Shown here: piece by piece, positions 32,092 through 36,141 of the stretch
Position numbering within the stretch: the first letter of the stretch is position 1
How the letters are laid out: each line of letters starts with the position of its first letter
From: Candidatus Amesbacteria bacterium RIFCSPLOWO2_01_FULL_49_25
Lineage (GTDB): Bacteria > Patescibacteriota > Microgenomatia > CAZETR01 > Amesbacteraceae
Assembly (NCBI GenBank): GCA_001773725.1
Contig: MEXP01000020.1
Span: 19,526 to 83,525, forward strand
Direction: 5' to 3'
Length of the DNA: 64,000 bases
Notes under the pieces: generated by a model
The model's database searches: none
What the model was told of the DNA's origin: nothing
What the model saw: only the letters and a program-made list of their open reading frames with translations
Program-made: the position numbers and the translations under genes

Positions 32092-32583
32092 ATGAATTTT
32101 GAAATAAATGAGTTAAAAGACAAGGCAACAGCAATTGAGGTCGGAGATTTCTTAACAGGCCCTAATGCTTTCGAACAAACCTGGGCTCCAAACGAAAAAG
32201 ACATGGTTAAGCAGGCATCTCTTGATAGTTTGAGAAATAAAAATCACAAGTATTGGTATGTCGAAGATAGGGGAAAAATTATTGGGGCAATCGGTGTCAG
32301 GGAAAATAAATACGGCAGCGGAGGGTACGAAATGGACTCTGACTATATTGCGGTCCACAAAAACTATCGTAATCAAGGAATTGCATCAGAGTTACTTCGC
32401 AAAATGGAAGAACTTGTTAAAGAAAGGGGAGGGCGATATATTCATGTTCTCACCTGCGATATTGATTCATATATCCCCGCGAGAAAGTTTTACGAAAAGA
32501 ATGGTTACAAAAAAGTAAGTGAAATCCCCAATTATTACGTGCCCGGCGAAGGGCGAATTGATTACTTCAAAGAATTAACATGA
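32092..32583 (+). CDS. GNAT-family N-acetyltransferase
   Basis: VHKNYRNQGIASELL acetyl-CoA-binding motif. Confidence 0.8.
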   Translation: MNFEINELKDKATAIEVGDFLTGPNAFEQTWAPNEKDMVKQASLDSLRNKNHKYWYVEDRGKIIGAIGVRENKYGSGGYEMDSDYIAVHKNYRNQGIASELLRKMEELVKERGGRYIHVLTCDIDSYIPARKFYEKNGYKKVSEIPNYYVPGEGRIDYFKELT

Positions 32584-33626
32584 AATACCGGACCCTTGGC
32601 AAAACGGGTTTAAAAGTTTCGGAAGTGGGCATGGGCACGTGGCAGTTAGCCAATGATCCCGGCTGTTGGGTCGGCTCGGACCTAGACGAAAGCCTCAAAG
32701 CACTACACAAATTCGTGGAACTCGGCGGCAATTTTATTGATACCGCCTGGGTATACGGATACTCGAATTCTCAGCCAGACAGGCACCCATCTGAAGAACT
32801 TATCGGCAAATTCCTGAAAGACTCCGGCAGGCGTGATCAATTAGTTATCGCGACCAAAGTTCCCGGCAAAAACATGAAGTGGCCGGCGTTTAAAAACATT
32901 CCCATTTCAAAAGTTTTCCCGAACGACTGGATTGAAAAATGTGTCGATGACTCATTAAGAAGTCTCGGGGTGGATCATCTAGATTTGGTTCAATTTCATG
33001 TCTGGCAAGACGATTTTGTAGACGAAGACGGTTGGAAAAAAACTATCCAAAAAATTATCAAATCCGGCAAAGTCCGCTACTGGGGCATTTCCATAAACGA
33101 CTATCAACCCTCAAATTGTTTCAAAGCCATAGACACCGGTCTGATTTCTACAATTCAATTTATCTTCAACATCTTTCATCAAAAACCCACTGAAAAATTT
33201 CTGCCATATGCTAGAAAAAATAATATCGGCCTCATAGCTCGTGTCCCCCTGGACGAAGGGGGACTAACTGGAACTCTGGCGGTTGACACCAGATTTGCGG
33301 ATGGTGACTTCCGTCGTAACTATTTTTCTCCTGATCGTCTTCCAGAATTAATAGTCCGGACTGACAGATTAAAAAACATTCTCAGATCAGAAGCCAAAAC
33401 CCTGCCGGAATTAGCCCTCCGATATATTTTATCCTGGCCGGAAATATCAACAACCATTCCCGGCATTCGCAAAGTCAAGTACGCCATAGAAAACACTTCC
33501 GTCTCCGATGGCCGTAGATTATCAGACCAGCTCATGTCCGAACTCAAAAATCACACCTGGGAACGAAACTTTTATGACGACTGCTACGACCCGTGGCTCA
33601 AAAACTCTAATTTTGTGGAACCCTGA
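32580..33626 (+). CDS. aldo/keto reductase
   Basis: MKYRTLGKTGLKVSEVGMGTW...; AKR (alpha/beta)8 signature. Confidence 0.85.
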   Translation: MKYRTLGKTGLKVSEVGMGTWQLANDPGCWVGSDLDESLKALHKFVELGGNFIDTAWVYGYSNSQPDRHPSEELIGKFLKDSGRRDQLVIATKVPGKNMKWPAFKNIPISKVFPNDWIEKCVDDSLRSLGVDHLDLVQFHVWQDDFVDEDGWKKTIQKIIKSGKVRYWGISINDYQPSNCFKAIDTGLISTIQFIFNIFHQKPTEKFLPYARKNNIGLIARVPLDEGGLTGTLAVDTRFADGDFRRNYFSPDRLPELIVRTDRLKNILRSEAKTLPELALRYILSWPEISTTIPGIRKVKYAIENTSVSDGRRLSDQLMSELKNHTWERNFYDDCYDPWLKNSNFVEP

Positions 33627-33695
33627 TTAAATTAATATCTTCCACAGCCAGCCATGCCGCGGCAAGACCAACCTCGGATTATTAGCCTGTCCTTG
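33627..33695 (-). pseudogene. degraded duplicate of the ASCH-gene 3' end (left copy of the direct repeat)
   Basis: The minus-strand translation ...SEVGLAAAWLAVEDINLIRVPQN* parallels the intact ASCH C-terminus ...SGFGSATAWLVVEDINKVKII*, but it is preceded by an in-frame stop. Confidence 0.4.
33631..33689. repeat. direct repeat copy A (ATTAATATCTTCCACAGCCAGCCATGCCGCGGCAAGACCAACCTCGG...)
   Basis: The first 16 nt are identical to copy B at 35160; about 70-75% identity over ~58 nt. Confidence 0.6.
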
Positions 33696-33727
33696 CCCGA
33701 CCTCTCCGTGAATGCCATAATCGAAAC

Positions 33728-35140
33728 ATGTTGGAAAAGTATTTTCGTAAGATTCTCTTCAGGCGGTTCTTAAAAATAGATCTAAATGCAGTAGAACTTG
33801 CTGCAGCCGAAGATTCCCTTAAGAATAAATATTCCAAAGGATTATTGGAAAGTTTAATTTACGGCTTGATATCTATTCCCGCACTACTCTTTCTGGACAC
33901 CAGCATATTAGTGAGCGTGCTTATCCCTATTACCATGGTTTCGGGAACTGCCTGGTTTGCTGTTTCACTATCCAATATCAAGATGAAATTTGAGCCCTTT
34001 GGCAACGAATTAACAGTTGATCTCTATCGATCCTTTATGACCTCACTCGTGTTTCTTTCTCTCATGACTGTTGTAGCTCTTAATCCCAACTTATTCTTGC
34101 CCATATCCGCATGGGGTAAACAGTTTGCAGTTATTCCAATGATTTCGGGAATCTTCGGAACTCTAATAGTTCTTAAGATGATATACGACGTTTTTTCAGG
34201 GGCAACAAAGTACGATATGAACGATTCTATGTTGACGGGACAGCACGAAGCCGCCGAAAAATTTTACAAAAGATCACTCTCTCTTCTCAATTCTTGTGGC
34301 AGTCAACTCAAGACCGGGATATCTGCCGGAGCCACAGGCTATTTTGTCGGGCTAGCCTTTTACGAGGTCTTTAACTACATACTTTTATCAAAGGGCGACC
34401 ATCCAGAGGTACGTGAAATAATTTTCGAGATAGGGAAACTCAAATCAAAACCACCATCTACCGTAAAAGAAATAAAGACAATATGCGTCAGTTTTATTGA
34501 GAAGTTTCTCTCTTACGTTACAAATATTGCCGACGGTAGTACTCAAAAAAGCTATAAAAATATCCAATTAGAACTCTCCTCAATAAGAGAAAATCCCAAT
34601 GAAAACCAAGAAGTCCTAAATCTCAGACTAGCCACGATTCTAGAGGAAATGGAAGATATGTTGACGGGACAGGGAGAAGCCCTATTTACAAAGCGTCTCG
34701 AAATTGAAAAGAAATTTTTAGTCAAAACATTACCGGACTTGGAAAGTTTAGAGAAAACCGACATCCTGCAAGGCTACTTAGCCTCTCCAGCAGGGGACGA
34801 GCTAAGGATTAGAAAAATGGGATCAAATTATTTAAGAACCCACAAAAGGTCATATCCATCCGGATACCGAGAGGAGATAGAAGAGTTTATTCCCCATGAA
34901 GAATTCGACAATTTATGGCCACAAACCCAAGGGAAAAGAATAGAGAAAACCCGATACAAAATTCCTTACAGGGAATTAATTATTGAACTGGATGTTTTTT
35001 CAGGCCATCATAAAGGACTCGCCTTAGCCGAAGTGGAGTTTCATTCCGAGCAAGAGGCTGACTCATTCTCACCCCCAGAGTGGTTTGGCAAAGAAGTAAC
35101 TCTAGACCCCAAATATAAAAACGCAAACCTGGCAAACTAG
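33728..35140 (+). CDS. membrane-anchored CYTH-domain protein (triphosphate tunnel metalloenzyme/CyaB-like C-terminal domain, ~300-aa polytopic N-terminal domain)
   Basis: N-terminal multi-TM region. The C-terminal EIEKKFLV...ELRIRK...EIEEFI...RYKIPYRELIIELDVF...GLALAEVEF matches the CYTH EXEXK beta-barrel signature. Confidence 0.65.
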   Translation: MLEKYFRKILFRRFLKIDLNAVELAAAEDSLKNKYSKGLLESLIYGLISIPALLFLDTSILVSVLIPITMVSGTAWFAVSLSNIKMKFEPFGNELTVDLYRSFMTSLVFLSLMTVVALNPNLFLPISAWGKQFAVIPMISGIFGTLIVLKMIYDVFSGATKYDMNDSMLTGQHEAAEKFYKRSLSLLNSCGSQLKTGISAGATGYFVGLAFYEVFNYILLSKGDHPEVREIIFEIGKLKSKPPSTVKEIKTICVSFIEKFLSYVTNIADGSTQKSYKNIQLELSSIRENPNENQEVLNLRLATILEEMEDMLTGQGEALFTKRLEIEKKFLVKTLPDLESLEKTDILQGYLASPAGDELRIRKMGSNYLRTHKRSYPSGYREEIEEFIPHEEFDNLWPQTQGKRIEKTRYKIPYRELIIELDVFSGHHKGLALAEVEFHSEQEADSFSPPEWFGKEVTLDPKYKNANLAN

Positions 35141-35141
35141 C

Positions 35142-35525
35142 TTAGATAATCTTGACCTTATTAATATCTTCCACAACCAACCACGCAGTGGCGGAGCCGA
35201 AACCTGATTTGTTAATTTTAAAGGGCGCGATTCTTCTTGGGTTCTTCATCCATATTAAAACGCAATAATTTTTACCTTTAGCCCATTCCCCCGACCCAAA
35301 CAGCCCGATTGCCTTCTTCATATCCGTCGTTTCCATCACTTTTTCAGCCTCGGCCATCGCCGTGATTGGTTTTCCAGCATCTTTAAAATATTTTTTCTCT
35401 CCGACTTTTATTTTATCCCACGGCGCAGATTTATTTTTTAACCACCTTGACTCAATTTTCTTTTGCCCATTCAAAATTTTCTCAATTAAGTTAAGTTTTG
35501 GGTTCACAACAGCGATATGGTCCAT
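35142..35525 (-). CDS. ASCH-domain (PUA-like) protein
   Basis: MDHIAVVNPKLNLIEKILNGQKKIESRWLK... The start is trimmed to the MDHIAV Met. Confidence 0.55.
   Translation of the reverse strand: MDHIAVVNPKLNLIEKILNGQKKIESRWLKNKSAPWDKIKVGEKKYFKDAGKPITAMAEAEKVMETTDMKKAIGLFGSGEWAKGKNYCVLIWMKNPRRIAPFKINKSGFGSATAWLVVEDINKVKII
35160..35218. repeat. direct repeat copy B (ATTAATATCTTCCACAACCAACCACGCAGTGGCGGAGCCGAAACCTG...); encodes the ASCH C-terminus
   Basis: Matches copy A 1,529 nt upstream. Confidence 0.6.
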
Positions 35526-35586: not shown

Positions 35587-36141
35587 TCATATTGTCACTT
35601 TATCTCTTAATGCCGTTGTCACAAACACACTCCGGTGATACCTGCTCATACCGTGTTCCTTAATTGCCTGGATATGATATTTGGTGCCGTAACCCACGTT
35701 GGACTTCCATCCGTATTTTGGGAACTCTTTATGTAGGCGGGTCATTAATCTATCCCTCTCTACCTTTGCTACTATCGACGCAGCCATCACGCACTTTATT
35801 TTTCCATCCGCTTTTATCAGGCTTTTGGCATTTCTAATCTTCAAACTCCCGTCGACGATATACCTGTCCGCCTCGATTCGATTAATAAGATTTTTAAATA
35901 TCTGTTTGTTTGCCCACGCCATTCCCCGGTTATTAATCTGTCTTGCGGAAATAGATTCGACAGCGAACTCCATTTTCGCCCGTTTCATCCGGTTATAAAG
36001 TTTCCGCCTCTGTTTTGGTGTTAATTTCTTGCTGTCCTTCAAAGACAAATTGTGTTTATTTAACACAACTGCCGCGGCCACCAGCGGTCCCGCAAGACAA
36101 CCGCGTCCAACCTCATCCAATCCGCATATCCGCATAGACAA
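35587..36141 (-). CDS. rnhB: ribonuclease HII
   Basis: ICGLDEVGRGCLAGPLVAAAVVL...DSK motifs. Confidence 0.9.
   Translation of the reverse strand: MSMRICGLDEVGRGCLAGPLVAAAVVLNKHNLSLKDSKKLTPKQRRKLYNRMKRAKMEFAVESISARQINNRGMAWANKQIFKNLINRIEADRYIVDGSLKIRNAKSLIKADGKIKCVMAASIVAKVERDRLMTRLHKEFPKYGWKSNVGYGTKYHIQAIKEHGMSRYHRSVFVTTALRDKVTI

What the first reader, a model, noticed from the sequence alone, without database searches (positions are those of the whole stretch)
33627..35220. Single-gene insertion of a membrane-anchored CYTH (triphosphate-tunnel) protein flanked by ~60-bp direct repeats derived from the 3' end of the ASCH gene
The sequence ATTAATATCTTCCACA(G/A)CCA(G/A)CCA... occurs twice, 1,529 nt apart (33631.. 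and 35160..). The first 16 nt are identical and overall identity is ~70-75% over ~58 nt. Copy B encodes the real C-terminus of the minus-strand ASCH gene (...ATAWLVVEDINKVKII*). Copy A encodes a decayed paralogous tail (...AAAWLAVEDINLI..) preceded by a stop. Only one gene lies between the copies: a 470-aa protein with a ~300-aa polytopic N-terminal domain and a C-terminal CYTH domain (EIEKKFLV signature). This pattern, duplication of the target gene's 3' end bracketing the cargo, is the footprint of site-specific integration into a gene's 3' end. I find no integrase in the window, so the cargo may have arrived as a cassette. Membrane-tethered CYTH enzymes are uncommon and their substrate is unknown (triphosphate or nucleotide triphosphate hydrolysis or cyclisation).
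Basis: seen in the sequence. Interest (0 to 1): 0.65.

Follow-up and report, generated by a model that had tools for sequence, protein, structure and literature searches.

The report
Single-gene insertion splitting two converging genes
In a tiny-genome groundwater bacterium (Candidatus Amesbacteria), one gene for a rare membrane-anchored triphosphate-hydrolysing enzyme was inserted between two genes that overlap end to end in relatives, duplicating about 66 bases of one gene's tail; it is a clean but fairly ordinary example of gene gain.

Summary
ATTAATATCTTCCACA occurs exactly twice in the 64-kb window, at 33631 and 35160. The match is 28/33, against a maximum of 22/33 in shuffles, and weaker homology spans 33619-33684 versus 35148-35213.

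Copy B is the working 3' end of the ASCH-like gene. Copy A is a dead ASCH tail beside the aldo-keto reductase (AKR) stop codon.

I found the predicted empty sites. In at least four related Microgenomates lineages, AKR and ASCH converge directly, with a 29-nt overlap in two of them. Copy A still reads into AKR as those intact tails do. None of 80 other ASCH loci carries the cargo gene, so this is a lineage-specific insertion of 1,463 nt plus a 66-nt duplication.

The cargo is one gene with a promoter-like site of its own. It encodes a roughly 320-aa, four-transmembrane helical domain known only from CPR bacteria and DPANN archaea. That domain is fused to a CYTH domain 48% identical to the Nitrosomonas inorganic triphosphatase NeuTTM, with every catalytic motif intact. 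The motifs indicate a triphosphatase, not an adenylate cyclase.

Site-specific integration is not shown. There is no integrase, terminal inverted repeat or attC-like hairpin, and homologues sit at eight unrelated sites without flanking repeats. An almost identical 21-nt core between diverged arms keeps a recombination-site reading open. Interest is moderate.

The parts
32580..33626 (+). Aldo/keto reductase (AKR) gene, the left neighbour; intact, with its stop TGA at 33624-33626.
   Evidence: Pfam Aldo_ket_red E=3.3e-54. The C-terminus ...DPWLKNSNFVEP* matches orthologues ...DPWLKDSGFVEP*.
33607..33684 (-). Relic of the original ASCH 3' end (copy A). It has 23 codons, SEVGLAAAWLAVEDINLIRVPQN, then a stop at 33607-33609. 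In-frame stops lie at 33679-33684. Its last 20 nt overlap the AKR 3' end.
   Evidence: Sequence; translation. The tail is orthologous to the L012 tail ...AAAWLCVEDINSIKVPQSRSL*, which runs into AKR.
33619..33684 (.). Direct repeat, copy A (66 nt; near-identical core 33631-33651; tool-reported block 33631-33663).
33685..33727 (+). Cargo leader. It carries a sigma-70-like site, TTGCCC-17-(TG)CATAAT, at 33693-33721, ending 6 nt before the ATG, so the mRNA is probably leaderless or nearly so.
   Evidence: consensus match only. ATAATCGA at the same distance from the ATG is shared with homologue L019.
33728..34696 (+). Cargo gene, N-terminal domain (aa 1-323). It has four hydrophobic helices (about aa 38-57, 59-82, 100-126, 131-156) and then a cytoplasmic helical bundle. 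The invariant motifs are KYDxNDxMLTGQxE and QGExLF.
34697..35140 (+). Cargo gene, C-terminal CYTH / triphosphate-tunnel domain (aa 324-470) and stop codon.
   Evidence: phmmer to NeuTTM 2FBL/3TYP E=1e-33. Foldseek gives 48% identity and TM-score 0.73-0.75 normalised to the target. Pfam CYTH E=1.7e-5 when the domain is scanned alone.
35142..35147 (-). New end of ASCH, supplied by the cargo edge: one Ile codon (GAT 35145-35147) and the stop (TTA 35142-35144, i.e. TAA). It lies 1 nt after the cargo gene's stop.
   Evidence: Sequence; codon alignment with orthologues.
35148..35213 (.). Direct repeat, copy B (66 nt; tool-reported block 35160-35192), in use as the ASCH 3' coding end.
35142..35525 (-). 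ASCH-like gene (127 aa from ATG 35525), the target of the insertion; intact.
   Evidence: Gene call. 97 homologues, several of them named ASCH by their sources. 14 of 24 family members hit PF04266. All family-invariant residues are present.
35587..36141 (-). RNase HII gene, a conserved right-hand anchor of the locus.
   Evidence: Pfam RNase_HII E=9e-35. RNase HII lies upstream of ASCH in the close relatives L011, L012, L014, L016 and L030.

Best explanation
**Ancestral state (shown by comparison).** AKR and the ASCH-like gene converged, and their 3' ends overlapped by about 29 nt.

**The event (shown).** In the lineage of this Candidatus Amesbacteria genome, 1,463 nt (33685-35147) carrying one gene with a promoter-like site of its own became joined into the last roughly 25 codons of ASCH. 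As a result, 66 nt of ASCH 3' sequence now lie on both sides of it.
- The AKR-side copy is the displaced original tail. It still reads into the AKR 3' end, has upstream stops and is decaying.
- The ASCH-side copy stays in service. It takes one new codon and a stop from the edge of the cargo.
- AKR and ASCH both remain intact.

**Mechanism (inferred, about 50% within this explanation).** I favour a one-off recombination with no dedicated integrase. Two routes fit: illegitimate joining with repair-associated duplication, or a Campbell-like or homology-facilitated crossover at the ASCH tail. The 21-nt near-identical core would then be explained by later gene conversion or by constraint just downstream of the AKR stop. 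I do not think this is a self-mobile element.

**The product (inferred from motifs and models).**
- It is a membrane protein with its N-terminus inside, four transmembrane helices, a cytoplasmic helical bundle and a cytoplasmic CYTH tunnel.
- The CYTH tunnel most likely acts as a two-metal hydrolase of inorganic triphosphate or short polyphosphate, like NeuTTM.
- The enzyme is held at the membrane. The last N-domain helix (motif QGEALF) ends five residues before the ExExK strand, so the membrane domain is positioned to couple to or regulate the tunnel.
For: **Repeat.** It is real and well above chance.

**Empty sites.**
- L012/L013 and L016/L017 have RNase HII, ASCH, then a convergent AKR overlapping ASCH by 29 nt.
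- The same adjacency is seen in L045 and L083.
- AKR is 74-83% identical across these loci.

**Orthology of the flanks.**
- Copy A's left flank is orthologous to the AKR 3' end of the empty sites.
- Copy A's tail LIRVPQN* matches SIKVPQSRSL* of L012.

**Specificity to this lineage.**
- None of 80 ASCH loci from metagenomes has the CYTH-fusion gene beside it.
- The cargo gene lies in eight other, unrelated contexts, with no flanking repeats in the six loci tested and no ASCH-tail fragments in any.

**No recombination machinery.**
- No integrase or transposase Pfam hit among called genes across window positions about 2.8-64 kb.
- No terminal inverted repeats.
- No hairpin in the repeats.

**Hypervariable site.** The region 3' of ASCH has five different occupants in related genomes.

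**CYTH domain.**
- NeuTTM match at E=1e-33 and 48% identity.
- Invariant in 18 fusion homologues: E325/E327 with K329 at 90% or more (ExExK), Y350 and K373, R360/R362, K407/R409, E420/D422, E435/E437.
- Y350 and K373 are the equivalents of the NeuTTM Tyr-28/Lys-52 dyad. This rests on my residue count on the alignment, plus PMC3440374.
- By the criteria of PMC8233210, both Arg of xRxR and both Glu of ExE are retained. That indicates a TTM hydrolase, not a class IV cyclase.

**Topology.** Four hydropathy peaks and nine K/R in aa 1-38; AF2 pLDDT 88.8.
Against: **Uneven decay of copy A.** Copy A has nine private changes in the 27 nt nearest the ASCH body, but the two copies differ at only 2 of the middle 21 nt (Fisher p=0.011). 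Simple duplication followed by neutral decay does not predict this. It needs an added assumption of gene conversion or constraint. Recombination with an incoming diverged ASCH-tail segment predicts it directly.

**Limits of the data.**
- Only one strain-level sequence is available. All five assemblies of this locus are identical across the repeats and cargo; the only two mismatches (L003) lie about 4 kb upstream. Presence/absence polymorphism and selection on copy A therefore cannot be tested.
- The nearest sampled relative is distant (ASCH 68%, UvrD 80%), so the event cannot be dated.
- The donor is unknown; the closest homologue of the cargo gene is only 70% identical.
- G+C content is not anomalous, so there is no compositional sign of recent transfer.

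**Function.** The enzyme's activity and substrate are untested, and the N-domain has no recognisable relative of known function.
Confidence: 0.62

Rival explanations
1. Site-specific integration. A small circular unit carried the gene plus an attachment segment homologous to the ASCH 3' end. A recombinase supplied in trans, or since lost, recombined it with the chromosomal ASCH tail. Copy A would be attL and copy B attR. The crossover would lie in the identical core, and the element would supply ASCH with a replacement 3' end.
For: - The copies are mosaic: 2 differences in 21 nt in the core, against 12/27 and 6/12 in the arms.
- The working ASCH tail KVKII* differs from the ancestral tail, and its stop lies at the cargo edge, 1 nt from the cargo gene's stop.
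- The displaced native tail remains beside AKR.
- The gene sits in a different context in every genome examined, which fits a mobile gene.
Against: - No integrase in the cargo or among called genes across about 61 kb of the window.
- The cargo has room for only one gene.
- None of the other loci of this gene family carries an ASCH-tail-like fragment, and the six tested for flanking direct repeats have none.
- No attC-like folding.
- Similarity extends beyond the core in both arms, so the arms are homologous rather than unrelated sequence.
- The N-domain was not found in the phage or plasmid collections.
Confidence: 0.2
2. Two steps. ASCH first duplicated in tandem within this lineage. The body of the AKR-proximal paralogue was then replaced or deleted when the CYTH-fusion gene arrived, leaving only its last 23 codons.
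For: - Copy A is a bona fide ASCH tail in its original position.
- Both copies and the closest relative L030 share a first-position G (GTT or GCT) where the other orthologues compared have the Cys codon TGT/TGC. This places both copies in the same clade.
Against: - It needs two events, with a second breakpoint that happens to fall 66 nt from the AKR stop.
- None of about 85 ASCH loci shows tandem ASCH copies.
- No ASCH-like sequence is left between 33685 and 33727 or inside the cargo. The cargo gene is homologous to its family from residue 1.
Confidence: 0.08
3. Reverse polarity. The gene and its repeats are old at this site, and the empty sites in relatives arose by recombination between the direct repeats, that is, precise deletion.
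For: Direct repeats could mediate precise excision and would regenerate an AKR/ASCH overlap.
Against: - Empty sites occur in at least four lineages spanning 51-63% ASCH identity, and no other ASCH locus has the gene. This reading therefore needs many independent precise losses.
- It only moves the insertion event back in time; it does not remove it.
Confidence: 0.05

Closest known systems
NeuTTM (NE1496, PDB 2FBL/3TYP), the specific inorganic triphosphatase of Nitrosomonas europaea; CthTTM is in the same cluster.
   Same: - The CYTH domain (aa 324-469) aligns end to end at 48% identity.
- It has ExExK, both Arg of xRxR, ExE and the Tyr-28/Lys-52 equivalents Y350/K373.
   Different: - NeuTTM is a free-standing soluble protein of about 150 aa.
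- Here the domain is the C-terminal third of a 470-aa membrane protein.
- Activity was not measured.
E. coli YgiF (CYTH-CHAD) and Arabidopsis TTM1/TTM2 (kinase-CYTH, tail-anchored in the mitochondrial outer membrane).
   Same: Both are precedents for CYTH domains fused to a helical or membrane-targeting partner (PMC3440374, PMC8233210).
   Different: - The partner here is an N-terminal polytopic four-transmembrane helical domain with no Pfam, NCBIfam or PDB relative.
- It is not CHAD, not a kinase and not a single C-terminal anchor.
- AtTTM1/2 lack ExExK and ExE; this protein has both.
Genomic islands and integrative elements that insert into the 3' end of a gene, classically tRNA genes, and leave a duplicated 3' end as attL/attR.
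   Same: - The cargo is bracketed by a direct repeat of the target's 3' end.
- The target gene stays intact with a replaced end.
- The displaced end sits at the far junction.
- There is an identical core.
   Different: - No integrase.
- The cargo is only 1.46 kb and one gene.
- The target is a protein-coding gene overlapping a convergent neighbour.
- Other copies of the gene do not use this site again.
Integron gene cassettes.
   Same: The unit holds a single ORF of about 1.5 kb, with a recombination-like segment of about 70 nt next to the ORF's 3' end.
   Different: - No attC-type hairpin.
- No integron integrase or attI in the window.
- The unit appears to carry its own promoter.
   Same: These would yield a foreign segment flanked on one or both sides by resident homologous sequence without a dedicated recombinase. 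They would also explain a crossover core with diverged arms.
   Different: No donor with the cargo gene next to ASCH was found. 66 nt is short for RecA-dependent recombination.

Membership tests
CYTH / triphosphate tunnel metalloenzyme superfamily | N-terminal ExExK motif. | tested here: met
   The motif is E325-I-E327-K-K329. Both Glu are invariant and K329 is at least 90% conserved in 18 homologues.
CYTH / triphosphate tunnel metalloenzyme superfamily | Eight-stranded beta-barrel tunnel fold and a significant match to family models. | tested here: met
   - The AF2 model has eight main strands with pLDDT above 90 in this region.
- Foldseek's top 25 PDB hits are all TTMs.
- Pfam CYTH scores 25.1 bits against a cut-off of 23.2 when the domain is scanned alone.
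- The full-length protein gives no Pfam hit.
NeuTTM-type inorganic triphosphatase | Both Arg of xRxR, both Glu of the beta-8 ExE motif, and the Tyr-28/Lys-52 dyad. | tested here: met
   R360/R362, E435/E437, Y350 and K373 are all invariant. The criteria come from PMC8233210 and PMC3440374. The residue mapping is my count on the alignment.
NeuTTM-type inorganic triphosphatase | Specific Mg2+-dependent hydrolysis of PPPi. | not testable with these tools
   This needs an enzyme assay.
Class IV adenylate cyclase (CyaB type) | An HFxxxxExExK extension, the first Arg of xRxR replaced by a small residue, and ExE changed to ExA. | tested here: not met
   - The sequence is L319-F320-TKRL-E325, so Phe is at the right spacing but His is absent.
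- F320 belongs to the N-domain motif QGExLF, which is also invariant in proteins that have no CYTH domain.
- R360 and E437 are retained.
- The name 'Adenylate cyclase' given to homologue P0011 is therefore probably wrong.
Thiamine triphosphatase | W/YxRxR, with an aromatic residue stacking on the thiazole. | tested here: not met
   The equivalent position is E358, in ELRIR.
ASCH domain (PF04266), for the target gene | A significant match to the family model. | tested here: inconclusive
   - The window protein has no Pfam hit even at E up to 10.
- 14 of 24 close homologues hit PF04266, best E=1.4e-5.
- Several homologues are named ASCH by JGI or NCBI.
- The PDB profile search gives only a weak hit, PH0355 at E=0.3.
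Integrase-mediated integrative element | A tyrosine or serine recombinase in or next to the element. | tested here: not met
   The cargo is one gene. No recombinase Pfam family appears among called genes of window positions about 2.8-64 kb. Several genes there have no Pfam hit at all.
Integrase-mediated integrative element | attL and attR share an identical core within a duplicated target 3' end. | tested here: inconclusive
   There is a 16-nt exact core, with 19/21 identity, flanked by diverged arms. Duplication followed by gene conversion or constraint would give the same pattern.
Integrase-mediated integrative element | The same target is used by related elements. | tested here: not met
   Eight other contexts of the gene are unrelated to ASCH, and none of the gene-family loci searched carries an ASCH fragment.
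Integron gene cassette | An attC site (imperfect palindrome that folds as a hairpin, with GTTRRRY core sites) and an integron integrase or attI. | tested here: not met
   - DNA folding of both copies on both strands gives z-scores from -0.8 to +0.9.
- No inverted repeat lies at the cargo ends.
- I saw no GTTRRRY in the repeats when reading by eye.
- No integrase.
IS element or transposon | A transposase, terminal inverted repeats and a short target-site duplication (2-15 bp). | tested here: not met
   There is no transposase and no terminal inverted repeats. The duplication is 66 nt.

The most novel reading that the evidence does not exclude
There are two non-exclusive readings.

(a) The roughly 320-aa N-domain is a new kind of membrane module. 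The family has only 81 clusters at 50% identity among 1.84 billion representatives, is restricted to CPR bacteria and DPANN archaea, and has invariant acidic and polar motifs at the cytoplasmic face. In the fusion it would couple a membrane event, such as sensing or transport of a phosphate-related ligand or metal, to hydrolysis of triphosphate or polyphosphate.

(b) The 1.5-kb unit, made of one gene with a promoter-like site plus an attachment segment of about 70 nt, represents a cassette-like way of moving single genes into the 3' ends of converging genes in CPR genomes, using an unknown recombinase or none.
Probability: 0.12. Interest if true: 0.7.

Novelty: new variant of a known kind. Interest (0 to 1): 0.38.

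Why it matters
- **Gene gain in CPR bacteria.** These genomes are very small and carry few recognisable mobile elements, so how they gain genes is poorly understood. This locus is a rare case where the before state (empty sites) and the after state are both visible to the base. It shows that a single gene can be slotted between two overlapping convergent genes without damaging either.
- **Annotation.** The fusion gives a first functional handle on a membrane-domain family specific to CPR and DPANN organisms. It also corrects public annotation. GenBank calls only a 160-aa CYTH fragment for this gene, and a homologue is named 'adenylate cyclase'.
- **Scale.** Neither point overturns current understanding.

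Tried and rejected
- **Chance repeat.** Rejected by the shuffle test and window-wide scans.
- **attC or hairpin.** Folding both copies on both strands showed no excess structure.
- **Terminal inverted repeats at the cargo ends.** None found.
- **Flanking repeats in homologues.** None around the cargo gene in six other loci. None at three other variable junctions next to ASCH.
- **ASCH-tail fragments near other cargo-gene copies.** Only chance-level hits. A recurring weak hit falls inside the N-domain gene, where TAWFAVSLSNIK resembles the ASCH tail TAWLVVEDINK. I judge this coincidental.
- **Fold of the N-domain.**
  - BFVD, the viral structure library, gave nothing.
  - AFDB50 was not available.
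  - A weak phmmer hit to KcsA (E=0.07) was dismissed because the sequence has no selectivity-filter motif.
- **Internal duplication of the N-domain.** BLASTP of the two halves found nothing. Only the short MLTGQ motif recurs.
- **Defence-system membership.** No PADLOC hit.
- **Phage or plasmid carriage.** Only free-standing CYTH domains match; the N-domain does not.
- **Split-gene (Rosetta-stone) support.** One of five loci with a stand-alone N-domain has a CYTH gene two genes away (L025). It is not NeuTTM-like, so I treat it as coincidence.
- **Strain polymorphism.** All five assemblies of the locus are identical across the repeats and cargo; the only two mismatches (L003) lie about 4 kb upstream.
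- **Composition.** No G+C anomaly over the cargo.
- **RNA elements.** Rfam and ARAGORN found nothing in the region.
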